From a virus, in IMG/VR virus record IMGVR_UViG_3300044611_002115, positions 13,540 to 77,539 of that record: a stretch of 64,000 bases of DNA. One strand, 5' to 3'. The position numbers and the translations under genes are program-made. Below are positions 24,773 to 38,381 of the stretch, piece after piece. The notes beneath the pieces were generated by a model. That model did not search any database and had not been told where the DNA came from. It worked only from the letters and a program-made list of their open reading frames with translations. Numbering within the stretch: the stretch's first letter is position 1; each line of letters starts with the position of its first letter.

Positions 24773-26866
24773 ATGAACGTCTTTGAATACACGATCCCCG
24801 CGACAGTCCAACAGCCTGCGGGTAACGCCTCCAGCATCACCTACGAGTTCAAAAGCACCAAGACGAATTCTGACAGTTGGAGGTGGGCGGATTCCAATGC
24901 CGACTCTGGGTGGACGACAAGCTCTGAGAGGGGGGGGACGTGGGGAGGAACCACCCATTCGACAGAATGGACAGACTGCTACGGCAACAAGGGAACGTCT
25001 TGCATAGTCGCGGAAACCGAAAGCAGCAGTTCTTCTATTGGGCGCTCTTACGCCGGTTCCCCGTCCAACTCTAATGGCTCTCAGCACAATCGGAACTACG
25101 GGGCAACAGACGTTTCGTATATCAGCTACACAAAACAGGGAGGGAACAGCAGCACCTCAGAGGCAGGGGCCGATGCTGTAGATGGGGTAAACACTCCTTT
25201 CAACAACGGGGACGGCGATGCTTGGGAGTCCACCGTTTCCTTTTCCTACCACAAGGCAGAGAAAGCCAACTCTGCATACATACATGGGGTGGTGGGTCTT
25301 TCCACGAAGACTTACAGGTCCTCGAACAGTGGGGAGGAAGGATGGCCGACTGCTATTCCCCCATCCTATGTTTGCGGTTCTTCCTACACTCGCACCGCGC
25401 TCACGTTCACTAACGGGTGGTTGCAGGAGACCGTATCTTCGTTCACGTTCACCAAATCAACCACCACATCCACGGCGAGTGGCAGTGGAACAAACACATG
25501 GACGACGACCAAGGAAACAACCACAACCAGAAATAGTTCTTGGAGCTATTATCCAGATGGCGCGACTTACTGCACGAGCGGGGGTGGGACAAAGAGCAGG
25601 ACGGACAACGTGAATTACATAGGGGAAGCCGCAGGGACATCTTCGGCATTAGGGAGCAGCAATCAAACAGTGAAGGTGGTTAGCGGAGATGGAGGCTCCT
25701 CTTTTTTGGTGGCAGCGGAACATGAGCCGCAGACCCTTGCAGAGTTAAAAGACCCCAGAACGTTCCTTAATCTGACAGATCAACTGACCTATGGGGTCAC
25801 AAGCTCGACAAAGCTGGGGACGATCTATACCGTGGCTGACAATGATGCCTTCGCCCTCCTCAGTTATGAAGTCCCGGCATGGACGTATGAGAGCACCTCA
25901 TCTTCGGGAGGCACAAGGGAAAGCTCCTACACTCTTGGCGGGTGGGGTCGGGTGCCTGCCTCGACAGCAGCCTATACCCGCGCAGAGCACACACGGTCCA
26001 CTTGGCTGACCACCCTCACCTCAGAGGCTTCGTATTCCGGCATCGGAGCCACTACAGCAACAAGGGAAGCAACCTCTATGGCTTGGTCGGACAATATAAA
26101 TCCAGTTACCTATTCACAGACTGACGTGCTGCCTGTTTCCACCACCAGCAACATACTCACGGCTACAGAATCGAATGAGGGACGAGGAAGCACAACAAGC
26201 AGGGGGTTCTCTGTCACGGACTGCACCACCTTCCTGCCGAACGCATTTTCGAGGGATCTTGACAGAGACTTGTCGATTGTGGTGAGCGAACAACTTGACC
26301 ATGGGGCCAATGCTCCCGCCTCTTCGATAAACACTGCGCGTATGTATATTTCGGGTAACATCGGGACCACGCTTACGGTTGAGACTATGGCCTCTATCTC
26401 GAATGGAATCCTTGCACTCATCCCATGGCCGACAACATCATGGACATCAGGCAGCAGTTCGTGGGGTATGTCCATCAATGGCAGATCACTAAGCTGGGGG
26501 AAAACGGAGGCGTTCACTAAATCATCCAACCCCTCCGATCCTTCGACGCTATCCACAACGAGCGCCAGCAGCAGCGGATTGCTTTCTGATGCAGGGACGA
26601 ACGGCGGCACGAAGACGGGCAATGTTTTCAGCAGCGTGATTAATGGAAAGATGACCGCCACTTTCGGGTTCGGCTTGTGGGCGGCACTAAAAACGAATTC
26701 TACGGGCGGAACAGTAGAGGCGTTGTCCTTTTCAAACAAAAGCCAAGGAGTCACGACCACCTTGGCTTCCCCAGAATACTTTTCCTTCGCAGGCGCGGTT
26801 CAAGATACAGGGCTTGCGTGGGAGGAAACACCCAACTACATCTCAGTAGAAGTAGAAGAACTATGA
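24773..26866 (+). CDS. Ser/Thr-rich tail/receptor-binding protein
   Basis: About 697 aa, extremely S/T/G-rich, with lower GC than flanks. Confidence 0.7.
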   Translation: MNVFEYTIPATVQQPAGNASSITYEFKSTKTNSDSWRWADSNADSGWTTSSERGGTWGGTTHSTEWTDCYGNKGTSCIVAETESSSSSIGRSYAGSPSNSNGSQHNRNYGATDVSYISYTKQGGNSSTSEAGADAVDGVNTPFNNGDGDAWESTVSFSYHKAEKANSAYIHGVVGLSTKTYRSSNSGEEGWPTAIPPSYVCGSSYTRTALTFTNGWLQETVSSFTFTKSTTTSTASGSGTNTWTTTKETTTTRNSSWSYYPDGATYCTSGGGTKSRTDNVNYIGEAAGTSSALGSSNQTVKVVSGDGGSSFLVAAEHEPQTLAELKDPRTFLNLTDQLTYGVTSSTKLGTIYTVADNDAFALLSYEVPAWTYESTSSSGGTRESSYTLGGWGRVPASTAAYTRAEHTRSTWLTTLTSEASYSGIGATTATREATSMAWSDNINPVTYSQTDVLPVSTTSNILTATESNEGRGSTTSRGFSVTDCTTFLPNAFSRDLDRDLSIVVSEQLDHGANAPASSINTARMYISGNIGTTLTVETMASISNGILALIPWPTTSWTSGSSSWGMSINGRSLSWGKTEAFTKSSNPSDPSTLSTTSASSSGLLSDAGTNGGTKTGNVFSSVINGKMTATFGFGLWAALKTNSTGGTVEALSFSNKSQGVTTTLASPEYFSFAGAVQDTGLAWEETPNYISVEVEEL

Positions 26867-28216: not shown

Positions 28217-29854
28217 ATGAAACAGACATCAGCCCGCGAACGCTTCATCTCAGACTTTGAGATTTTGAGCCGCAGCGGAATCGGAGTAATACTGACACGC
28301 ACGCGGGAGCCGCACAGGGCGGAGGACGCGCTGCGGATGTGGGCATTCGAGCACGACAGAAAGTTCCGCTCGTGGAACGCAGTGCGGGGGTGGCTCGAAA
28401 CCGTGCCGGAGAGCACCAAGGGGCAGCGCCCCGTGGCGGACAAGCTCATCGACCCATACATTGCGCTCAAGCGCATCAACGACGTGGACGGGGGCGGGAC
28501 GAACGCGTGGCAGGACACTCTCTGCGCCATGCACTATCCTCATTGGGTGCTTCCCAAAATGCCCGCCTTCATCCAGTGCGTGAAGGAATACGCGCGGGAC
28601 TTCACGGAGAGCAAGCAGCGCCTAGTCCTGCTCACGCCGGAAGGCTTCGTGCTTCCCGTGGAGCTGCAAAACGACATCGCCGTGCTGGACTTCGACCTGC
28701 CCTCTCGCGGGGAGCTGCGCGAAATCTACGGCAACGTGCTGGAGAGCGTGCAGGACAGCAAGGGCGCGCAGAGCGTGCACTACACGGACGCCCAAGTGGA
28801 TGTCCTGCTGGGGAGCGGGAGCGGCATGACGGAGTTCGAGTTTGAAACTGCGCTGTCCAAGGCGTTCATCACGCACAAGGCGCTCATGCCTAACGTGCCG
28901 CTAGAGAAGGTGAACGAAGTCATGCTGGAAACCAAGACGGACGTGGTGAAGCGGAGCGAAGTGCTGGAGCTGATGGAGCCTGTCAACATGAAGGACGTGG
29001 CGGGGCTGGACTTGGCTAAGGAGTGGATCGGCAAGCGCAAGAAGTGCTTCTCAGACGCCGCGAAGGACTTTGGCGTGGACGTGCCCAAGGGCATCTGCGC
29101 CATTGGGCCTCCGGGCACGGGCAAGACGCTGTTCGCCAAGGCCATTGCCAGCGTGCTGCAAGTGCCCCTCATCCGCTTCGACGTGGGCAAAGTGTTTGGC
29201 GGCATCGTGGGGCAGAGCGAGGAGCGCAGCCGCAGCAGCCTTAAGCAGATTGACGCGATGGCTCCCTGCGTGGTGCTCATCGACGAAATCGACAAGGCGG
29301 GCATTGACCCACGGCAGGGGGGCGGGGACAGCGGCGTGAGCAAGCGCGTCATGGGTGCCATCCTCACGCACATGCAGGAGACGAAGGCTCCCGTGTTTTG
29401 GGTGCTCACAGCAAACCGCGTGGACGGACTCCCGCCGGAGCTGCTGCGGAAGGGGCGCTTGGACGAAGTGTTCGCAGTGCTGCCGCCTAACGCCACGGAG
29501 CGCCTTGAGGTGGTCAAAATCCACCTGCGCAAGCGCAAGCAAGACCCCGCGAAGATTAAGGGGCTGGACGCAATCGTTACGCGCAGCGAGGGCTTCGTCA
29601 GCGCGGAGCTGGAGGCCGCAGTGAAGGAGGCGGTGGTGGAAGCCTACGACAGCAACAAGCCCGTCACGGCGGAACTCATCGTGCGCCAACTGGAGGGCAT
29701 GAAGCCCATCAGCGAGGCGTTCGCGGAGGACTTCACACGGATGCGCGAGTGGGCGGAGAGCAATGCGCGCATGGCAAGCACGCCGGAGGAACAGCCGGAG
29801 CCGGAGCACGCGTTCCGCACCCGCACCCGCCGCCGCGCGCTGGACAACAACTAG
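28217..29854 (+). CDS. Ycf46-like AAA+ ATPase
   Basis: N-terminal degenerate domain (TREPHR, LPVEL..D..VLDFDLP), Walker A GPPGTGKT, Walker B VLIDEIDK, TAN..D.LPPELLRKGRLDE. Confidence 0.92.
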   Translation: MKQTSARERFISDFEILSRSGIGVILTRTREPHRAEDALRMWAFEHDRKFRSWNAVRGWLETVPESTKGQRPVADKLIDPYIALKRINDVDGGGTNAWQDTLCAMHYPHWVLPKMPAFIQCVKEYARDFTESKQRLVLLTPEGFVLPVELQNDIAVLDFDLPSRGELREIYGNVLESVQDSKGAQSVHYTDAQVDVLLGSGSGMTEFEFETALSKAFITHKALMPNVPLEKVNEVMLETKTDVVKRSEVLELMEPVNMKDVAGLDLAKEWIGKRKKCFSDAAKDFGVDVPKGICAIGPPGTGKTLFAKAIASVLQVPLIRFDVGKVFGGIVGQSEERSRSSLKQIDAMAPCVVLIDEIDKAGIDPRQGGGDSGVSKRVMGAILTHMQETKAPVFWVLTANRVDGLPPELLRKGRLDEVFAVLPPNATERLEVVKIHLRKRKQDPAKIKGLDAIVTRSEGFVSAELEAAVKEAVVEAYDSNKPVTAELIVRQLEGMKPISEAFAEDFTRMREWAESNARMASTPEEQPEPEHAFRTRTRRRALDNN

Positions 29855-30585: not shown

Positions 30586-31038
30586 ATGAGTCATACAACC
30601 AAAATCAATCGCGTCCCCATCAAGGACATCGCCGCCCTGCACAGCGCAGTGGCCGAGCTGCTCGCCAAGGGCGTGCAGTGCACACTCGCGCAGAACGTCG
30701 CGCCGCGCATGTTCTACGGCAACCAGCACGGGGTCTGCGACTACGTGCTGCAACTCCCCGCCAGCCGCTACGACGTGGGGTTCGCCAAGAACGCGGACGG
30801 CAGCTACACTCCCGTCTGCGACCTCTGGGGACAGGACATCAGCCGCAACTTGGGCGCACGCTGCCCGCTGCCCACCAGCACGGAGGGGCGCACGCAGCAC
30901 GCCATTGGACAGCTTATGCAGGGCTACAGCAAGCACGCCGCCATCAACGCCGCCACCGCAGCGGGGCACATGGTCGAGTCCTGCACAGTCAACGAGGAGA
31001 CGGGCGACGTGGAGCTGCTGCTCGCCACCACCTACTAA
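30586..31038 (+). CDS. DUF1257 (Ycf35-like) protein
   Basis: MSH.TKI...D..AL..A..EL...YDVGF....GSY..V.D.W...L.Q.Y.......A...G..VE.....G.V.L. Confidence 0.85.
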   Translation: MSHTTKINRVPIKDIAALHSAVAELLAKGVQCTLAQNVAPRMFYGNQHGVCDYVLQLPASRYDVGFAKNADGSYTPVCDLWGQDISRNLGARCPLPTSTEGRTQHAIGQLMQGYSKHAAINAATAAGHMVESCTVNEETGDVELLLATTY

Positions 31039-31284: not shown

Positions 31285-31641
31285 ATGGCACAGCTCATCA
31301 CAATAGCGGCGGACGGGAGCATGACCGCGCTGCAAGTCAAGCGGGGGAAGGGGCTGGACTTGCGGCAGTTCGGGCACGCGGACATCGTGCGCAGCTCGCT
31401 CATCGAGTGGGACGCGGAGGTGCAGGGGTGGAAGGTGCGCTTGCTGCACTGCACAGTCGACCACGGGCTGCTCACGCCCGACCTCTGCCACAAGGCGGGA
31501 GTGGACGTGCCGGACACTGCGCAGCGCTACGGCGAGGGCGGGGAGTGCGCGCTCTACTTCGACGAATACGAGGACGCGGTGACAGCGGAAGTGGACGTGA
31601 TCCAAGGGCTGCGCCGCATATACGGGAGGGACGCAGCGTGA
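31285..31641 (+). CDS. Conserved small partner of the AAA/DUF1257/DUF2997 cluster
   Basis: LITI..DG...L....LDL...G...I.R.S.IE.D...W......F.....AV.AEV, resembling from memory the small ORF in such clusters. Confidence 0.6.
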   Translation: MAQLITIAADGSMTALQVKRGKGLDLRQFGHADIVRSSLIEWDAEVQGWKVRLLHCTVDHGLLTPDLCHKAGVDVPDTAQRYGEGGECALYFDEYEDAVTAEVDVIQGLRRIYGRDAA

Positions 31642-31762
31642 AACGCAGTGCAACCAGCCCCCAAAAAGGCTCAAACTTCGCACAAAAAGGCACCCAGCAG
31701 CGCGTTTGGCGCTCTGGGAGGGTAAAGTCAGCGGGCGCAGGGGGAGGGCGCTACAGGGAGCC

Positions 31763-32014
31763 ATGAGCCAGTATCGCTACATCCACAAGGACGGGAGGGC
31801 GTGCGAATGGCTCCCCAGCGGGCGGGGCAGCTACCACGCAATCTGCGCAGCGCTGGGAGACGTGGAAGCCAACGACCTGCTGGGGCTTGACGCGGAGACG
31901 TGCGAGATGAAGTCGGACGGGGGATACAAGTTCGACGCGGAGCACAAGGCGGAGGTGCTGCTCATGCGCAGCACAAAGGACGGCAGCATACTTGGAAGGG
32001 TGCTGCGCAAGTGA
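31763..32014 (+). CDS. Hypothetical protein
   Basis: 83 aa with GGGAG RBS. Confidence 0.6.
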   Translation: MSQYRYIHKDGRACEWLPSGRGSYHAICAALGDVEANDLLGLDAETCEMKSDGGYKFDAEHKAEVLLMRSTKDGSILGRVLRK

Positions 32015-32029
32015 CCAACAATTTTACGA

Positions 32030-32233
32030 GGGCAGGTAGCTCAATAGGTGTGGGTGAGTCTGCGCACAGTGGACGCATGGGAGTCGAGCGACGGCTTCTA
32101 TCTCATGCGCGAGCGGTGCAGGGCAAGTCCCATATCCCGTCGAGGGATAGAGTAGGTGGTGAGTGCGGAGCCGCTGCGCACGGAAGGCCAAGCGAGCCAC
32201 TGATGATTGGAGGTTCGACTCCTCCCCTGCCCA
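32030..32233 (+). ncRNA. tRNA-like RNA with the anticodon loop replaced by a structured insert of about 124 nt
   Basis: Acceptor GGGCAGG/CCTGCCC-A, TAGCTCAA D-arm start, T-arm GGAGG-TTCGACT-CCTCC, and a CAGTGG/CCACTG stem enclosing several hairpins. Confidence 0.78.
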
Positions 32234-32455
32234 CAATTTTCAGTTCCGTTGATCGTGGTGTTCAACGGTTGTGGCGGGGAGGGGTGACACGGGTTGCCCC
32301 TCCCTTGCCGCCACTACACGCTGCAACAGTTGCAGCGCTTATCATTCAACAAAAGACCCCGCCCAGCATTTCTGCCGAGCGGGGTGACACATTAGGTTCC
32401 CAACGAATAGGAGCGGGGATCATCCCCTGTTTCCGCAACACTGTCAACACGCATT

Positions 32456-33679
32456 ATGGCATCAGACTCTTTTTCCAACCCCGTGCACTTCCGCGATTGG
32501 TTCCGCGTAGTCATGCGAAACTGGGCGCAGCACTTATCCCCAGCGGAGGCCATGCTTGTGCTGTTCGTGCTGGACAGGACGATGGGGTGGGGGAAGGAGT
32601 GGGAAATTGTCACGTGCCAGCAGATGCAGGACGGCATCTACTACCAGCGGGACGACGGAGCTGTGGTGGAGGTGGCAGGGGGCATCGGGCTAAGCGCGGA
32701 CAGGGCGCAGCGCTTGCTCACGGGGCTTGTGGAGCGGGGCGTGCTGCGGGCGCGGGGCACAGCGGGGCGGGCGCGGCAGCTTGCGCTCAACTACGAGTGG
32801 ACGCCTGACACGGACATGAAAGTATCCCAGCGCCCAAAGCAGTTGCAGCGCGGGCTGAAAGTGCCCAAATCAACCCCCGTTAATATAACGGCCACCCCCG
32901 TTAATATAACGCCACCCCCCCGTTATATTAACGGACTAAGAGTAGCAAAGCAACAGGACGGAAACAAAAGAGAACGGACTGCCGCGCGAGAGCGCGGCGA
33001 GGGGAGGCTGGCGGAGGTAGCGGACACAGCAGCACAGCGCACGCGGGACAAGCACGCAGCCAAGCTCTCCCGCCTAGCCAATGCGGACACGCTCAGCCTA
33101 GCCTCCCTTTCCTCCGTGTGGGGCGCGGCATGCGCAGCAGCGCACAGCGGGGAGTCACTGCCCGACGTGAGGCAGAAGGACTTCCTCATCCTGCAAGCGT
33201 GCATGCGCAGGCACAGCGCAGGCGAGCATTCCGTGCGCTTCGTTCCCCTGCTGCAATGGAGCGTGGCGCAGTGGCGCAGCATAGTGAGCGCCTACTTCCG
33301 CTGGATGCCCGATGCCCCCGTGCTGCCGGAGCCTCGTTTCTTTGTGCGCTTCATAGACAGGTTCCTCAACGCGCACTCGCGCTTGGAGGAGCTGGAGCGC
33401 TTGCAGAACATGACGACGCGGGAGCAAATGGTCTATCACCTCACGGCGCGCAAGGGCATGTCACAGGAGGCGGCGGAGCGCGAGGTGGACGAGAAGCTGG
33501 GGCTGCTAAGGATCAAGCAGGACATAGAAGCGGAGCGGAAAAAACTGCAACAGTTGCAGTCGAGCAGCGTGGAAGCTGTGGAGTCAAAACAACGCCTTGC
33601 CTTAATGCAGCGGGAAGCTAAGCAAGTCGAGGCGCGGGCGGTAACATTAACCAAAGGAACATTCGACACATGGGAATAG
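32456..33679 (+). CDS. Replication initiator (lambda O-like N-terminal wHTH) containing iterons
   Basis: LSPAEAM.V.FV.DRT.GWGK.WE N-terminus, internal AT-rich repeats, upstream of loader-like and DnaB genes. Confidence 0.72.
   Translation: MASDSFSNPVHFRDWFRVVMRNWAQHLSPAEAMLVLFVLDRTMGWGKEWEIVTCQQMQDGIYYQRDDGAVVEVAGGIGLSADRAQRLLTGLVERGVLRARGTAGRARQLALNYEWTPDTDMKVSQRPKQLQRGLKVPKSTPVNITATPVNITPPPRYINGLRVAKQQDGNKRERTAARERGEGRLAEVADTAAQRTRDKHAAKLSRLANADTLSLASLSSVWGAACAAAHSGESLPDVRQKDFLILQACMRRHSAGEHSVRFVPLLQWSVAQWRSIVSAYFRWMPDAPVLPEPRFFVRFIDRFLNAHSRLEELERLQNMTTREQMVYHLTARKGMSQEAAEREVDEKLGLLRIKQDIEAERKKLQQLQSSSVEAVESKQRLALMQREAKQVEARAVTLTKGTFDTWE
32872..32935. repeat. Iterons / probable replication origin
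   Basis: CGTTAATATAACG at 32878 and 32899, its reverse complement at 32921, each preceded by ACCCCC; 21-22-bp period. Confidence 0.78.
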
Positions 33680-34263
33680 ATCAACAGCAGGAGAGGGAGC
33701 GGGCGGCGGTAGCCAGCTTCCGAGACGCGGGCATTGCCACGCGATATTTGAAAATGGAGGAGTCCCTCATGCACTACGGCGACGGGGGCATTAAGATTGC
33801 GGGGATGCACGCGAGCGGAGCGCTGCGCGAGTCCCTCTACAACGGGAGGGGCTTAGCCATAGTTGGCGACGGGGACAGGGCGGTGAGCGTGACGCAGCTT
33901 GCATGCCGCGCTTCCCTGCTGCTGGGCGTCCCGACGCGCCTCTACACGCTGCCGTGGCTGCGCCGCGTGCTGTGCGGGCAGGGGAGGGACGGGGACGAGC
34001 TGGGAGAGCTGCACAGGGCGCGCGTGGTGGGAGTGCTTGGGTTCTACGACCACAACTTCAAGCATCCCGTGCCGGAGGAGGATTTGTTTAGCATAGGCTG
34101 GTCGCTCAAGGAGCTGCTCATGGACAACAAGGCGTTCATCGTGCACACGACGCAACCGCTGGAGCAAAGTGCGGCGTGGTGGCATGAGGGGCTTGTGGAC
34201 ATGCTACAGCAGCGCGTTGTTCAAGTGCCTGTGGGCGCTGCAAGCAGGAAGGGGAAACACTAA
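33670..34263 (+). CDS. DnaC/IstB-like helicase loader, degenerate P-loop
   Basis: AGI..RY...GRGLAIVG... layout between initiator and DnaB; no GKT. Confidence 0.5.
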   Translation: MGIDQQQERERAAVASFRDAGIATRYLKMEESLMHYGDGGIKIAGMHASGALRESLYNGRGLAIVGDGDRAVSVTQLACRASLLLGVPTRLYTLPWLRRVLCGQGRDGDELGELHRARVVGVLGFYDHNFKHPVPEEDLFSIGWSLKELLMDNKAFIVHTTQPLEQSAAWWHEGLVDMLQQRVVQVPVGAASRKGKH

Positions 34264-34264
34264 G

Positions 34265-35512
34265 ATGAGCCTATACGGAAAACTGGTGGCAAGCGCGCTG
34301 GACACGGGTTCGTCCTCTATCCTGCTGCGCGACGTAGCGACGGCGCACTTGCTGGAGAACGAGCAGCCGCTTGCGGCGTTCCTGCGCTCCCACTTCAACC
34401 GCCACGGCGCGCTTCCCAGCGCAAGCACGCTAAGGTCGAACGGGTTTACGCTTCCCGCCTTTGAGGAGCCAGCGAGCTACTACGCGGAGCGCTTGCGAGC
34501 GCGCTACGCCTTCAACGTCATTAACGAGCGGCACCCGCAGTTCCTCGCCGCCCTTGAGGGGCGCAACATGCTGGAGGCCGTGCACGTGCTGCGCGACATG
34601 GTGGCGACGGTGGGGAGCAGCGTGGAGGAGCAAAGCGCCACAACCTTAGCGGCGGAAGTCGCGGGGGTGGTGGAGGAGTATAGGTCGCGCAAGCTGCAAG
34701 GCGGGCTGGCGGGGCTGACGTTTGGGTGGAGCACGCTCAACGCGCTAACTCTCGGAGCTATGGGCGGCGACCTTGTGGTGATTGCGGGGCGACCCAGCAT
34801 GGGGAAGTCGTGGCTGCTGTTTGAAAGCGCGTATCAGGCGTGGCAGTGCGGGCACAGCGTCGCCATCGTGAGCATGGAGATGAGCAAGCGGCAGGTCACG
34901 CGGCGCTGGATAGGCAGGCACTTGGGAATCAACCCAAACTTTATCAGGGCGGGGCAGGTGAGCGATTGGCAGGAGAGCACGCTAATCAACTACGCGGAGG
35001 GCATCAGCGCCATGCCTCGCGTGACGCTGCTCGCCGGAGACATGCGCAAGGGCATGGACGGGCTGGAGGCGATTATGCAGGAGCACCTCCCAGACGCGCT
35101 CTACGTGGACGCCGCCTACCTGCTAAGCCCAAGCGGGAGGCAGAAGGGTTACGTGAGCAAGTGGGAAACCATCAGCGCCGTGATTTTGGAGCTAAAGCAA
35201 ATGAGCATCCGCTTCAACCGCCCCATCCTCATCACCGTGCAGTTCAACCGCAACCAAAAGAGCGACAGCCGCAAGGAGCTAGACCTTAGCGACATTGCAG
35301 GCAGCGACAGCATTCCGCAGGACGCGAGCATAGTGCTGGGCGCACGCAGGGGACTGCCGCCCTACGACAGCATCCGCAGGCAGGTGGTGATTATGAAGAA
35401 CAGGGAAGGCGAGACGGGGGAGTTCACAACGAACTTCACCTTTACCCCGCCCAACTTGACGGAGATAATAGGGGCAGAGGCGGACGTGGCGGAAGTGGGC
35501 TGGATGGCTTAG
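34265..35512 (+). CDS. dnaB: Replicative helicase, DnaB family
   Basis: IAGRPSMGKS, SMEM, LYVDAAYL, VQFNR, SDSIPQDA, MKNREGE. Confidence 0.93.
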   Translation: MSLYGKLVASALDTGSSSILLRDVATAHLLENEQPLAAFLRSHFNRHGALPSASTLRSNGFTLPAFEEPASYYAERLRARYAFNVINERHPQFLAALEGRNMLEAVHVLRDMVATVGSSVEEQSATTLAAEVAGVVEEYRSRKLQGGLAGLTFGWSTLNALTLGAMGGDLVVIAGRPSMGKSWLLFESAYQAWQCGHSVAIVSMEMSKRQVTRRWIGRHLGINPNFIRAGQVSDWQESTLINYAEGISAMPRVTLLAGDMRKGMDGLEAIMQEHLPDALYVDAAYLLSPSGRQKGYVSKWETISAVILELKQMSIRFNRPILITVQFNRNQKSDSRKELDLSDIAGSDSIPQDASIVLGARRGLPPYDSIRRQVVIMKNREGETGEFTTNFTFTPPNLTEIIGAEADVAEVGWMA

Positions 35513-35543: not shown

Positions 35544-38381
35544 ATGAACATTGACGAGCTTGAGACGGAGAACTTGAACGTGGGGGGAAACCCCGACGCG
35601 CAGATTGCAGTCGTGTGCGACAGCCCATCACAGAACGTGTGGGCGGCGGGGAACGTGATGAGCACGCACGCCATGAACGTGTTTGGGCAGCAGGCGAAGG
35701 ACTGCGGCATGACTAAGGACGACTTCTTTTTCGTCACGTGCTCCCCGCCCATCCCAGAGGAGCATGCGGTGAGCGAGGGGCGCGTGAGCAAGTTCGTGCA
35801 GCCTTACGGGGAGGAGCTGATGCGCACGCTGCAACAGTTGCAGCACTGCAAGCTGGTGATCTACTTGGGCAAGACAGCGGGGCGGCAGGTGCACGGGCGC
35901 AGCATTAAGATCAACTCGCTGCGCGGGCGCTTCCAAAACCTACCCATCAACGGGAGGCAGGTTCCCGTGCTGCCCATGCTAAGCCCCGCCAACGTGCTGC
36001 GCAGGCCGGAAGTGGCGAGCATATTCAACGCGGACTTCCACCAAATCACAGCGTTCCGCGAGGCGGGCTGGAACGTCAAGCGCTACGAAGCGGCGCGGGT
36101 GACGACAAAGTATCAGTGGGTCACAGACCTTAGCGCCATCCTCGCCAACCCTCCCAAGGCGCTCGCGCTGGATACGGAGACGCGTGGCTTGTGGGGAAAG
36201 CCCCTGCTGGCAACAATGAGTTGGGGCAAGGGGCACGGCATCTGCATCCCCTTAGATCACACCTATTACACGGACATGACGGAGGCGGACGAGCGCAAGC
36301 TGCACGCGCAACTCCGCAATCTGCTCGCCAACCCGCGCGTGGCGGTGGCGGGGCACAACTTAGGGTTCGACGTGGCGGCGCTGCGGCGCATTAACATTGA
36401 GGTGGCGAACTGGTATTGCGACACCATGCAGCTTGCCTTCGCGGCGGACGACAACATGCTGAGCAAGTCGCTCGCGGATTGCGTGAAGCGCTGGGTGCCG
36501 GAGCTTGCGGGCTACAGCGACAGCTTCGACGCCACAGTGGACAAGGAGCACATGGAGCTGGTGCCGCTGGAAAAGATGCTGCCCTATGCGGCGGGCGACG
36601 CGGAGGCCACGTTCCTGCTTGCGCAGCGCCTAGTGAAGCTGGTGAAGGAGGACAGCAGGCAATGGACTTGCTTCGTCAAAGTGCAGATGCCCGTGCTGCG
36701 GATGTTTGTGGGGATGAAGGAGCAGGGGATACTCATTAACCAAGAGGCGCTGCGCACGCTGGAGGAGGAGATGGCGGTGAGCGAGCGGGAGCTATACCGC
36801 AAGCTCATCCGGCGCGTGCCAGCGGAGGTGAAGCGCAAGCACATTGACAAGGGGCTGGCGTTTAGCAGGGACGAGTTCGTGCGCGACATCCTGTTCAGCA
36901 AGGAGGGCTTCGGCCTAACTCCCGTCGTGTTCACTAAGACCACGAGCATGCTAAAGGGTGCGGCGCGCATACCCAGCACGAGCGCGAAGGATCACCTGCC
37001 GTTTTTTGCAGAGGACAACAGCTTCGTCGTGGACTTGATCCAATACCAGAAGCTCGCCAAGATGCGCAGCACCTACGTCGGCAGGGAAAGCAAGCGGGTG
37101 GTGACGCGGGTGGTGATGAAGAAGGATGGGACGATGCCAGCGGCGCTGGGGAAGAAGCTGGAGCGCGCGGGGGTGGAGCTGGACTTAGCGACACGCTCCG
37201 CGCTGGTGCAGGGGGTGCGGGCACGCACGCGCAGGCGGGTGCTGGAGTTTGACGACAGGCAGCTCAACGTGGCGCTGAGCGTGCCTATCGGGGAGGGTGC
37301 GGACAACTTGCTGGTGACTGACCGCGACCAACTGTTCCTGTCCCAATACAGCGAGCCGACGGGGTTCTGGCAGCACATCATGGAGGACGGGCGCATCCAT
37401 CCCAGCTTCCACCTTCACCGCGTAGTCACGGGGCGCAGCAGCAGCAGCGATCCGAATGCGCAGAACTTTCCCAAGCGCGGCGCGCTCGCCAAGCAGTATC
37501 GCAAAATCTTCATCCCCTCGGACGGATACAAAATTATTGAGGCCGACCTTAGCCAAGCGGAGCTGCGCATTGCGGCGTGGATGGCAGGGGAGACGACCAT
37601 GCTGCGCATCTACCGCGAGGGCGGGGACATTCACGCAGCAACAGCGGCGGCGATTCTCGGCATCACAATGGAGCGCTTCTCCGCACTCAAGGGCAGCAAG
37701 GAGGAGGTGCCCGCGAAGTATAAGGTGGGCGGGTTTGATGGAAAGACGTGGGGCGAGTATTATGACTTCAAGCGCTTCCAAGCAAAGGCGGTCAACTTCG
37801 GGTTCCTCTACGGCATGGGGTGGAAGACGTTCCGCGTGTATGCGAAAACGGACTACGGCCTCAACTTGAGCGAGGAGCAGTCCATCGCCATGCGCCGCGC
37901 GTTCTTCGCCCTCTACCCCCGCCTCGAAGCGTGGCACAAGAGCATGAGGGCATTCGTGCAGCTTCACGGCTACGTGCGGGGGCTTCACGGCGCGCTGCGC
38001 AGGCTCCCCAGCATCGACAGCGACGACGAGGGCGTGCGGGGCGACTGCGAGCGGCAGGCAATCAACAGCCCCGTGCAGCGCTTCGCGTCCGACTTGGGGC
38101 TGATTGGCATGTTCCGCTTCTGCGAGAACGCGCCCCGCGACGTTGTGCGCCCGCTCGCCTTCATTCACGACGCGGCAGTGCTGGAGGCGCGGGAGGACTG
38201 CGTGCGGGAGTGCGCAGGGGGAATCAAGTGGGCGATGCAGACGCCCCCGCTGGAGGAGTGGTTCGGCATCAAGTCTCCCATCCCCATCCTTGCGGACGTT
38301 TCCGTGGGGACTTCGCTGGGGGCGACGGAGGAGCTGGACGTGGCAGCAGCCGCGCCAAGCTGGATCAAAATTCAGTGTTGA
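35544..38381 (+). CDS. polA: Family A DNA polymerase with N-terminal UDG-like domain and 3'-5' exonuclease
   Basis: LDTET (ExoI), HNLGFD, YAAGDA, TGRSSSSDPNAQN, DLSQAELR (motif A), AKAVNFGFLYG (motif B), NSPVQ, IHDA (motif C). Confidence 0.95.
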   Translation: MNIDELETENLNVGGNPDAQIAVVCDSPSQNVWAAGNVMSTHAMNVFGQQAKDCGMTKDDFFFVTCSPPIPEEHAVSEGRVSKFVQPYGEELMRTLQQLQHCKLVIYLGKTAGRQVHGRSIKINSLRGRFQNLPINGRQVPVLPMLSPANVLRRPEVASIFNADFHQITAFREAGWNVKRYEAARVTTKYQWVTDLSAILANPPKALALDTETRGLWGKPLLATMSWGKGHGICIPLDHTYYTDMTEADERKLHAQLRNLLANPRVAVAGHNLGFDVAALRRINIEVANWYCDTMQLAFAADDNMLSKSLADCVKRWVPELAGYSDSFDATVDKEHMELVPLEKMLPYAAGDAEATFLLAQRLVKLVKEDSRQWTCFVKVQMPVLRMFVGMKEQGILINQEALRTLEEEMAVSERELYRKLIRRVPAEVKRKHIDKGLAFSRDEFVRDILFSKEGFGLTPVVFTKTTSMLKGAARIPSTSAKDHLPFFAEDNSFVVDLIQYQKLAKMRSTYVGRESKRVVTRVVMKKDGTMPAALGKKLERAGVELDLATRSALVQGVRARTRRRVLEFDDRQLNVALSVPIGEGADNLLVTDRDQLFLSQYSEPTGFWQHIMEDGRIHPSFHLHRVVTGRSSSSDPNAQNFPKRGALAKQYRKIFIPSDGYKIIEADLSQAELRIAAWMAGETTMLRIYREGGDIHAATAAAILGITMERFSALKGSKEEVPAKYKVGGFDGKTWGEYYDFKRFQAKAVNFGFLYGMGWKTFRVYAKTDYGLNLSEEQSIAMRRAFFALYPRLEAWHKSMRAFVQLHGYVRGLHGALRRLPSIDSDDEGVRGDCERQAINSPVQRFASDLGLIGMFRFCENAPRDVVRPLAFIHDAAVLEAREDCVRECAGGIKWAMQTPPLEEWFGIKSPIPILADVSVGTSLGATEELDVAAAAPSWIKIQC

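What the first reader, a model, noticed from the sequence alone, without database searches (positions are those of the whole stretch)
32030..32233. tRNA-shaped RNA with the anticodon loop swapped for a multi-helix domain of about 124 nt
Seen: perfect 7-bp acceptor stem (GGGCAGG/CCTGCCC) with discriminator A, U8-A9-GCTC D-arm start, and a canonical T-arm (GGAGG TTCGACT CCTCC). In place of the anticodon arm is a CAGTGG (32067-72)/CCACTG (32197-202) helix closing an insert. The insert has its own helices: GCATGGGA/TCTCATGC, AGTCG/CGGCT, TATCCC/GGGATA, and a long-range GCGC-G-AGCGGT/GCCGCT-GCGC. It lacks the G3:U70 pair and tag ORF of tmRNA, is short for a group I intron, and has no U33. Inference: a new tRNA-mimic ncRNA, for example a decoy against anticodon nucleases, a tmRNA-like rescue RNA, or a tRNA with a tiny unusual intron. 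It lies right before the replication initiator.
Basis: partly seen in the sequence, partly recalled or inferred. Interest (0 to 1): 0.85.

Follow-up and report, generated by a model that had tools for sequence, protein, structure and literature searches.

The report
Anticodon-less tRNA-shaped RNA in lake phage
A lytic lake-water phage carries one 204-base gene-free stretch that keeps the perfect top half of a tRNA but has no usable anticodon arm. It most likely makes a non-decoding tRNA look-alike of the kind long known, and never explained, in phages T4 and T5, but I found no relatives with which to test this.

Summary
The tRNA-like ends are real and far beyond chance. There is a 7/7 acceptor stem, U8-A9, GCUC plus an AAUAGGU D-loop start, a perfect T-arm and discriminator A. 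It is the only such motif in the 77.5-kb phage, and none appeared in 300 simulated genomes.

The middle is unresolved. No Rfam family matches, the fold is not more stable than shuffles (z = -1.6), and several folds compete within about 4 kcal/mol. It keeps a full cloverleaf junction, with a 99-nt rod in the D-loop and a long arm without an anticodon loop. No single deletion of 60-159 nt gives a canonical tRNA.

The element and the small gene before it (orf102) fill a variable slot between a conserved AAA+ module and the Rep-DnaB-PolA genes. None of 80 related phage loci has a homologue, and a co-occurring strain has other sequence there. Covariation could therefore not be tested.

Best reading (about 0.45): an accessory, non-decoding tRNA-scaffold RNA cut out by host tRNA-processing enzymes, like T4 rnaC and T5 RNA1/RNA2. 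Rivals are a decaying tRNA gene or a tRNA with unconventional introns.

This scan has noted similar tRNA-top-half RNAs on other phage DNA. Those notes served as leads only.

The parts
32015..32025 (+). Left copy of the flanking direct repeat, CCAACAATTTT, AU-rich in a 62% GC genome
   Evidence: family D3, 10/11 match, spacing 215. ACAATTTT occurs 5 times in the window against 0.66 expected, and two of those copies flank the element.
32030..32036 (+). Acceptor stem, 5' strand GGGCAGG
   Evidence: Pairs 7/7 with 32226-32232. The same acceptor plus UAGCUCA is typical of bacterial tRNA-Phe(GAA).
32037..32049 (+). U8-A9, D-stem 5' strand GCUC, and D-loop start AAUAGGU (A14, A15, G18, G19)
   Evidence: Read directly. 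Matches the canonical tRNA core positions.
32050..32148 (+). Insert 1 in the best tRNA-compatible fold: a 99-nt irregular rod plus a small hairpin lying inside the D-loop. It contains the local alternative D-stem strand GAGU at 32056-59.
   Evidence: Constrained folds. Helices 32048-54/32129-35 (P 0.79) and 32059-65/32116-22 (P 0.61).
32074..32109 (+). Most reliable internal hairpin, CGCAUGGGA / UCUCAUGCG, 9 bp
Evidence: Pair probability 0.99.
32134..32148 (+). Small hairpin AUCCC-GUCGA-GGGAU
Evidence: Pair probability 0.66.
32149..32154 (+). A (A21 equivalent), then GAGU (D-stem 3' strand in the best fold), then A (position 26 equivalent)
   Evidence: GCUC/GAGU pairing 32039-42/32150-53, P 0.59. 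This model has the lowest energy among the tRNA-compatible folds.
32155..32201 (+). Extended 'anticodon' arm: stem GGUGGU 32155-60 / GCCACU 32196-201 closing 35 nt, with no 7-nt anticodon loop and no U33
Evidence: P 0.62.
32202..32208 (+). Variable-region equivalent GAUGAUU; its last U can make the A15-U48 Levitt pair
   Evidence: Read. This is inference from canonical tRNA geometry.
32209..32225 (+). T-arm GGAGG-UUCGACU-CCUCC
   Evidence: It is the only perfect T-arm motif in the genome.
32226..32233 (+). Acceptor 3' strand CCUGCCC and discriminator A; no encoded CCA (CAAUUUU follows)
32230..32240 (+). Right copy of the flanking direct repeat, CCCACAATTTT
31706..32014 (+). orf102, a small lineage-specific gene that fills the variable slot together with the RNA. 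It has coding-like GC3 periodicity and no family match.

Best explanation
The stretch is a tRNA-derived, non-decoding RNA gene, a 'tRNA scaffold'. It arrived as accessory cargo in a variable slot of a lytic phage.

It lies on the same strand as all neighbouring genes, and no sigma-70-like promoter of its own was found. It is therefore probably transcribed within the long message that runs from the AAA+/DUF1257 module into the Rep-DnaB-PolA genes.

The acceptor/T-arm minihelix and the D-loop/T-loop elbow marks are intact. Host RNase P would therefore be expected to cut at G32030, and host 3'-end enzymes after A32233, with CCA added afterwards. The AU-rich ACAAUUUU words on both flanks would serve as accessible cleavage sites.

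Processing would have two consequences. It would release a stable RNA of about 204 nt whose lower body cannot read codons. It would also separate the upstream message from the replication-gene message.

What is shown: the tRNA-like top half, the absence of any canonical anticodon arm, the non-coding character, and the accessory, lineage-specific placement.

What is inferred: transcription, processing, stability, and any role of the released RNA, such as a tRNA mimic that occupies a tRNA-binding factor.
For: - Top half perfect and far beyond chance.
- Under the best tRNA-compatible fold, U8-A14, A15-U48, G18G19/U55C56, A21, U12-A23, A26 and G44 are all available.
- No deletion of 60-159 nt gives a canonical tRNA. 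All 766 ARAGORN-positive constructs have G33, mismatched anticodon stems or weak D stems.
- RF00005 reaches only 18.7 bits against a cut-off of 29, and only on the last 84 nt.
- The pattern 'top half intact, bottom half non-canonical' is what selection on processing and shape alone would leave.
- No + strand promoter-like site lies between 31500 and 32700.
- The stretch lacks the strong GC3 periodicity of the flanking genes.
- Rare AU-rich repeats lie exactly at both ends.
- The slot between orf118 and Rep is variable among relatives.
- The closest relative found, G002, carries a different anticodon-less tRNA-like element in another slot. Such elements therefore behave as movable cargo in this phage group.
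- Precedents exist. T4 rnaC and T5 RNA1/RNA2 are annotated as stable tRNA-like RNAs. tRNA chimeras with foreign RNA in place of the anticodon stem-loop are processed and stabilised in E. coli (PMC3401473). Plant mitochondrial t-elements direct RNase P/Z cuts in mRNAs (PMC1920247).
Against: - No homologue was found, so there is no covariation and no proof of selection.
- The fold is not more stable than shuffles (z = -1.63), and several architectures compete within about 4 kcal/mol.
- A co-occurring strain shares sequence only from 32217, inside the T-loop, onward, so the element is dispensable or replaceable.
- An intact top half could also result from one or two recent insertions into a normal tRNA gene, without any selection.
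- There is no expression data.
Confidence: 0.45

Rival explanations
1. It is a decaying tRNA gene or recombination scar. A phage tRNA gene, such as relatives carry in this same module, was broken by insertions, duplications or a mosaic joint, and it now has no function.
For: - It is a singleton with no homologue.
- It sits in a hypervariable slot.
- A close strain has unrelated sequence up to 32216, so a recombination joint lies inside the T-loop.
- Internal direct repeats (GGUGAGU twice, CTGCGCAC twice) are compatible with duplication.
- Stability is not significant.
- Ordinary tRNA-Met genes occur in the same module in distant relatives L150, L153 and L167.
Against: - All 24 paired bases of the acceptor and T stems, the T-loop and the D-loop marks are intact, while nothing recognisable remains of an anticodon arm. 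Uniform decay would not spare only the top half.
- CTGCGCAC is a common word in this genome (17 copies against 9 expected).
- Compact lytic phage genomes rarely keep 200 nt of junk, although this is only a weak argument.
Confidence: 0.25
2. It is an interrupted tRNA gene whose insert or inserts are removed to give a working tRNA, Val- or Phe-like, by an unknown splicing route. Precedents are the 'enigmatic introns' of Lak megaphage tRNAs.
For:
- Many deletion constructs are called Val(CAC).
- The acceptor is of the tRNA-Phe type.
- Phage tRNA introns of unknown mechanism are on record (PMC6784885).
Against: - No construct has U33 together with a clean 5-bp anticodon stem and a sound D arm.
- There is no group I signal in Rfam even at E up to 10, and the insert is far shorter than the smallest natural group I intron I recall (about 205 nt, Azoarcus tRNA-Ile; from my own knowledge).
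- The phage has no RtcB, RNA ligase or CCA-enzyme gene.
- The best fold would need two separate excisions.
Confidence: 0.15
3. It is a tmRNA or tmRNA-like rescue RNA, either in standard topology or as the permuted two-piece gene that ARAGORN calls at 32140-32478.
For: - ARAGORN's default run reports 'tmRNA*' with the tag DPAQHFCRAG.
- There is a weak beta_tmRNA match of 12.7 bits over the T-arm.
- The overall topology, an acceptor and T-arm enclosing a large domain, resembles tmRNA.
Against: - The pair is G3-C70, not G3.U70.
- ARAGORN itself says 'Tag not identified'. The 'tag' lies in a hairpin (32356-32385) and lacks the usual hydrophobic Ala-rich end.
- ARAGORN's 5' domain lies in the downstream hairpin (tggcggggagg...), where GGCGGGG would mismatch CCUGCCC at 3 of 7 positions, whereas the upstream GGGCAGG pairs 7/7.
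- All Rfam tmRNA models score far below their gathering thresholds.
Confidence: 0.03
4. It is an attachment site (attP) or captured host tRNA from a temperate life cycle.
For: - tRNA 3' ends are classic integration cores.
- The strain variant shares exactly the last 17 nt of the element.
- An 11-nt repeat flanks the element.
Against: - No tyrosine or serine recombinase gene is found in the complete 77.5-kb genome.
- The genome has direct terminal repeats.
- The full 5' half is present, which an attP does not need.
- No second copy of the core exists in the window.
Confidence: 0.02

Closest known systems
Phage T5 RNA1 (144 nt) and RNA2 (125 nt), annotated 'tRNA-like stable RNA with unknown functions' (NC_005859)
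   Same: They are phage-encoded. They have an acceptor-like terminal stem plus a canonical T-arm, an enlarged non-decoding middle, and unknown function.
   Different: The T5 RNAs sit inside a large tRNA gene array and are shorter. RNA1 has a Leu-type D arm and RNA2 has a second internal T-arm hairpin. No sequence similarity to this element was seen. They were detected as stable RNAs, whereas this one is only predicted.
Phage T4 species 1 RNA (rnaC, 139 nt), with rnaD (NC_000866)
   Same: It is a small stable phage RNA with a T-arm (CCGGG-TTCGAAT-CCCGG) next to its 3' end, paired termini, no anticodon function and no known role.
   Different: It lies at the end of the T4 tRNA cluster. Its terminal stem is imperfect. 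It is unrelated in sequence and 65 nt shorter.
tmRNA (SsrA) tRNA-like domain
   Same: The 5' and 3' ends form an acceptor stem, a T-arm precedes the 3' strand, and a large structured domain replaces the anticodon arm.
   Different: This element has no G3.U70, no tag reading frame and no Rfam tmRNA score. It has a true tRNA-type D-arm start (UAGCUCAAUAGGU), which tmRNA lacks.
tRNA genes with group I introns (bacteria), and the 'enigmatic' tRNA introns of Lak megaphages (PMC6784885)
   Same: Each is a tRNA frame interrupted by 100 nt or more.
   Different: Those exons join to a canonical tRNA, whereas here none can be made. There is no group I core signal.
Plant mitochondrial t-elements (PMC1920247) and the engineered tRNA scaffold of Ponchon and Dardel (described in PMC3401473)
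   Same: These are non-decoding tRNA-like folds embedded in longer transcripts. tRNA-processing enzymes cut them out, and they stabilise or delimit RNAs. This is the working analogy for the mechanism.
   Different: They come from different organisms or are man-made. This is an analogy of mechanism only, with no common descent.
YrlA-type bacterial and phage Y RNAs (PMC4201824)
   Same: They are tRNA-mimicking non-coding RNAs found in bacteria and some phages.
   Different: As I recall the paper (I listed it but did not read it), the termini of YrlA form the Ro-binding stem and the tRNA-like part is internal, which is the opposite topology. Rfam gave no match, and the phage has no Ro60/TROVE gene.

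Membership tests
tRNA (Rfam RF00005) | Covariance-model score at or above the gathering cut-off (29 bits) over the whole molecule | tested here: not met
   No hit at gathering. The best score is 18.7 bits, on 32150-32233 only, using a mismatched pseudo-acceptor.
tRNA (Rfam RF00005) | 7-bp acceptor stem, 5-bp T stem with a UUCRANY loop, and U8, A14, G18G19 | tested here: met
tRNA (Rfam RF00005) | 5-bp anticodon stem closing a 7-nt loop with U33 | tested here: not met
   None is present in the native sequence or in any single-deletion construct.
tmRNA | G3.U70 alanine identity pair | tested here: not met
   The pair is G3-C70.
tmRNA | Tag reading frame with a resume codon and pseudoknots; an Rfam tmRNA model above threshold | tested here: not met
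   ARAGORN reports 'Tag not identified'. beta_tmRNA scores 12.7 bits against a cut-off of 84.
Group I intron in a tRNA gene | Group I catalytic core detectable (Rfam Intron_gpI) | tested here: not met
   No match even at E up to 10 in 31900-32550.
Group I intron in a tRNA gene | Flanking exons join to a canonical tRNA | tested here: not met
YrlA / Y RNA | Rfam Y-RNA-type model match; a Ro60 (TROVE) partner gene nearby | tested here: not met
   No Rfam match. No TROVE gene in the phage. A host Ro60 cannot be excluded.
Phage tRNA-like stable RNAs (T4 rnaC; T5 RNA1/RNA2), a descriptive class rather than a homologous family | Phage-encoded, paired termini plus a canonical T-arm, and no functional anticodon arm | tested here: met
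Phage tRNA-like stable RNAs (T4 rnaC; T5 RNA1/RNA2), a descriptive class rather than a homologous family | Accumulates as a discrete stable RNA in infected cells | not testable with these tools
   The host is unknown.
attP / tRNA-targeting integrative element | A site-specific recombinase encoded by the element | tested here: not met
   No PF00589 or PF00239 match in the complete genome.

The most novel reading that the evidence does not exclude
The element is one instance of a broad, still unnamed class of phage 'tRNA-scaffold' cassettes. In this class a conserved tRNA top half guarantees processing and stability, and it carries interchangeable cargo domains with their own functions. Here the cargo would be a roughly 100-nt rod and a long arm, placed just ahead of the replication genes. 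Such cassettes would move between intergenic slots of related phages. G002 carries a different one, with G3.U70 and two T-arms, in another slot.
Probability: 0.3. Interest if true: 0.7.

Novelty: new variant of a known kind. Interest (0 to 1): 0.4.

Why it matters
Phage tRNA-like stable RNAs have been known since the T4 and T5 era, yet none has an assigned function. If this element is expressed and processed, it adds a large-insert example from an uncultured lytic lake phage. It would also show that such RNAs behave as accessory cargo in variable slots, not only as members of tRNA arrays. That bears on two open questions. One is how phages exploit host RNase P, 3'-end and CCA enzymes to make stable RNAs or to punctuate long messages. 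The other is whether tRNA mimics act in phage-host conflicts. As a singleton without expression data or relatives, it cannot settle any of this by itself.

Tried and rejected
**RNA detectors**
- Rfam at gathering threshold on the whole window gave nothing. Rfam at E up to 10 on 31900-32550 gave only noise and a T-arm match.
- ARAGORN's default run gave only a dubious permuted tmRNA.

**Search for homologues**
- blastn of 31900-32500 against GenBank phages: no match.
- Exact 25-mer of the 3' end in IMG/VR: none. The strain variant's junction word in IMG/VR: none.
- Rep and PolA as single queries in IMG/VR: none.
- Rep alignments: too divergent to make search patterns, or no locus.
- The one metagenome scan gave only a 1-kb contig without any RNA.
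The contigs of the nearest Rep (P0002, 51% identity) and PolA relatives (P0009-P0012, 54-58%) could therefore not be read.
- nhmmer and blastn of the element against 80 related loci: nothing.
- DNA search of G001-G003: only the shared palindrome matched.

**Sequencing runs**
- No RNA holder was listed, so expression could not be examined.
- The DNA contigs of runs X2 and X3 are identical to the window over the parts they cover, so there is no microdiversity to read.
- X4 has no cover between about 31880 and 32217.

**Other checks**
- No second copy of the insert exists in the window.
- orf102 has no Pfam or PHROG family and no homologue in the relatives.
- Rhizobium phage L338C, G001 and G002 are syntenic but lack the element.
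- The weak RF00005 hit in G003 (L130) lies in what looks like ordinary low-GC sequence, and I did not pursue it.
- One paper search failed on a term that was too short.

Full report
**What the window is.** The window is bases 13540-77539 of a complete 77.5-kb IMG/VR virus record with direct terminal repeats. Near-identical DNA occurs in lake-water metagenomes of four studies. GC content is about 62%. Around the finding, all genes run on the + strand. They are a Ycf46-like AAA+ ATPase (28217-29854), a 246-aa ORF, DUF1257 (30586-31038), orf118 (31285-31641), orf102 (31706-32014), then a 441-nt gap. After the gap come a weak Rep-O-like initiator (32456-33679), a 197-aa ORF, DnaB (34169-35512) and a UDG-PolA fusion (35544-38381). 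No integrase or serine recombinase is encoded, so the phage looks lytic.

**The observation.**
- The tRNA-like ends are exactly as described: acceptor GGGCAGG/CCTGCCC 7/7, discriminator A, U8-A9, GCUC, a D-loop start AAUAGGU with A14 and G18G19, and T-arm GGAGG-UUCGACU-CCUCC.
- This is the only perfect T-arm motif in the genome. In 300 simulated genomes a perfect T-arm appeared 0.12 times per genome, and never with a 7/7 acceptor partner within 420 nt.
- The same acceptor plus UAGCUCA occurs in ordinary 73-74-nt tRNAs of many bacteria, 70 of 74 distinct ones being tRNA-Phe(GAA). The ends therefore derive from a real tRNA.
- The stretch lacks the strong GC3 periodicity of the flanking genes (0.69/0.64/0.52 against about 0.85/0.62/0.45). 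By the same measure, orf102 looks like a real gene.

**What the element is not.**
- Rfam 15 gives nothing at gathering threshold. At E up to 10 it gives only a 12.7-bit T-arm match to a tmRNA model.
- RF00005 reaches 18.7 bits against a cut-off of 29, and only on the last 84 nt with a mismatched pseudo-acceptor.
- ARAGORN's default 'permuted tmRNA' (32140-32478, tag DPAQHFCRAG) is a false call. ARAGORN itself does not recognise the tag. Its 5' domain pairs worse than the perfect upstream strand, the 'tag' lies in a hairpin, and the pair is G3-C70.
- With introns allowed, ARAGORN offers tRNA-Arg(GCG) plus a 111-nt intron with a poor body.
- I deleted every segment of 60-159 nt and re-ran ARAGORN. 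Of these, 766 constructs pass, mostly as 'Val(CAC)'. All have G33, mismatched anticodon stems or weak D stems. No single excision restores a canonical tRNA.
- The phage encodes no RtcB, RNA ligase, CCA enzyme, SmpB or Ro60.

**Internal anatomy.**
- The unconstrained fold is not more stable than shuffles (z = -1.63).
- I fixed only the acceptor and T-arm and re-folded. The best structure (-87.2 kcal/mol, equal to the best fold with only the acceptor and T-arm fixed (M0) and within 0.2 kcal/mol of the fully unconstrained MFE, -87.4) keeps a four-way cloverleaf junction.
  - GCUC 32039-42 pairs with GAGU 32150-53.
  - A32149 sits where A21 should be, and A32154 where position 26 should be.
  - GGUGGU 32155-60 pairs with GCCACU 32196-201, closing 35 nt.
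  - A 7-nt variable region follows, and then the T-arm.
- In this model the D-loop carries a 99-nt rod and the 'anticodon' arm is long and loop-less. The 9-bp hairpin in the rod at 32074-82/32101-09 has pair probability 0.99.
Other models lie in between.
- Another first-stage reader of the same stretch had proposed the D-loop model. My folds agree with it, but single-sequence energies cannot settle the matter.

**Relatives.**
- Rep has only seven relatives among 5.8 billion proteins.
- Through PolA and the AAA+ protein I fetched 80 related IMG/VR loci. The order AAA+ - orf246 - DUF1257 - orf118 - [slot] - Rep - DnaB - PolA is conserved.
- The slot is 186-420 nt in seven of nine measurable relatives. 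It is 1.3 kb in G002 (two extra ORFs and a split Rep), 2.0 kb in L138, and 815 nt here. Rhizobium phage L338C shows the same order with a 187-nt gap and no tRNA-like sequence.
- None of the loci has a homologue of the 204-nt element or of orf102. Ordinary tRNA-Met(CAT) genes do occur inside this module in distant relatives (L150, L153, L167).
- In two lake runs a second contig joins the reference only from 32217, inside the T-loop, onward. Unrelated sequence lies before that point for at least 90 nt in one run and 432 nt in the other. One of those runs has no cover of about 31880-32217. A very close strain therefore has different sequence across most of the element and the end of orf102.

**A second tRNA-like element in the group.** G002 is the closest relative found (AAA+ 71% identity over the partial gene in L128 and 65% over the whole gene in L136, DnaB 66%, PolA 57%). 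It has an element of about 118 nt between its ligase and the next gene, and this element is absent at that place in our phage.
- Its features are GGGGUAG/CUACUCC-A with G3.U70, a terminal T-arm, and a second internal T-arm followed by a closed acceptor-like hairpin.
- T5 RNA2 has the same two-T-arm design.
- Anticodon-less tRNA-like elements thus recur in this phage group as non-homologous cargo in different slots.

**Flanks.**
- An AU-rich repeat brackets the element: CCAACAATTTT at 32015-25 and CCCACAATTTT at 32230-40. ACAATTTT is rare in the window, with 5 copies against 0.66 expected.
- The repeat may mark cassette borders or accessible RNase E-type sites. Both readings are inference.
- No + strand promoter-like site lies between 31500 and 32700, so read-through transcription from upstream is the simplest assumption.
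- Downstream lie several hairpins, one copy of the genome-wide palindrome TGCAACAGTTGCA, and two GGGGTGACAC words 100 nt apart.

**Interpretation.**
- The asymmetry between a flawless top half and a non-canonical bottom half is best explained by a non-decoding tRNA-scaffold RNA. So are the co-directional, promoter-less position in an operon, the accessory placement, and the precedents.
- Host tRNA-processing enzymes would excise and stabilise such an RNA, and this would also cut the long message ahead of the replication genes.
- Precedents:
  - T4 rnaC and rnaD.
  - T5 RNA1/RNA2, annotated 'tRNA-like stable RNA with unknown functions'.
  - Engineered tRNA scaffolds (PMC3401473).
  - Plant mitochondrial t-elements (PMC1920247).
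- I put this reading at about 0.45, a decaying tRNA gene or recombination scar at 0.25, an unconventionally spliced tRNA at 0.15 (compare the Lak phage 'enigmatic introns', PMC6784885), and tmRNA-like or attP readings at 0.05 together.
- Nothing here supports a specific role such as an anticodon-nuclease decoy.

**Earlier notes of this scan.** Notes on other phage DNA describe many 'tRNA top half plus insert' RNAs. I used them only as leads.
- The pointers to T4, T5 and the Lak phages were checked here.
- Their claim of one large family was not checked.
- This element matched none of their sequences by shared words.

**Verdict.** This is a real, tRNA-derived, non-decoding element: a new variant of an old but unexplained kind of phage RNA. 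Its internal fold and function are unproven because it is a singleton. Interest is moderate.

Noticed in passing
L131:1491-1608 (IMGVR_UViG_3300042560_001229, about 24919-25036): The closest relative phage found carries its own anticodon-less tRNA-like element. Its features are GGGGUAG/CUACUCC-A with G3.U70, a terminal T-arm CCGGG-UUCGACU-CCCGG, and an internal T-arm GCGGG-UUCGAUU-CCCGC followed by a closed acceptor-like hairpin. It lies between the ligase and the next gene, overlaps the end of a 132-aa ORF, and is absent at that place in our phage. T5 RNA2 has the same two-T-arm layout.
   Followed up: partly
window 31641-32456 and the same slot in L128, L136-L151: The gap between orf118 and Rep is a variable cargo slot. 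It is 186-420 nt in most relatives. G002 has two extra ORFs there (one Cys-rich) and a split Rep, and L138 has 2 kb. Here it holds orf102 plus the RNA, and a co-occurring strain has unrelated sequence.
   Followed up: partly
window 32274-32290 and 32374-32390: Two copies of GC(G/C)G.GGGGTGACAC lie 100 nt apart, each inside a strong hairpin, just upstream of Rep. They are candidate initiator-binding or operator sites.
   Followed up: no
window 32319-32337; L003:4648-4662; G002 at 283-296, 33706-33719 and 66436-66453: The genome-wide palindrome TGCAACNGTTGCA noted by first-stage readers is shared with the relative G002. A similar word, TGCAACCCGTTGCA, occurs in Rhizobium phage L338C, so it is a trait of the phage group.
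   Followed up: partly
L150:9968-10043, L153:11725-11800, L167:12268-12340: Distant relatives carry ordinary tRNA-Met(CAT) genes inside or just after the AAA+/DUF1257 module. tRNA genes are therefore recurrent cargo in this neighbourhood.
   Followed up: no
window 35544-38381: The DNA polymerase A carries an N-terminal uracil-DNA-glycosylase-family domain (UDG, then 3'-5' exonuclease, then PolA). Many metagenomic relatives share this fusion.
   Followed up: no
window 32140-32478: ARAGORN's default run reports a permuted tmRNA here. It is a false positive triggered by the T-arm and by downstream hairpins, and automatic annotation of this phage would probably carry it.
   Followed up: yes
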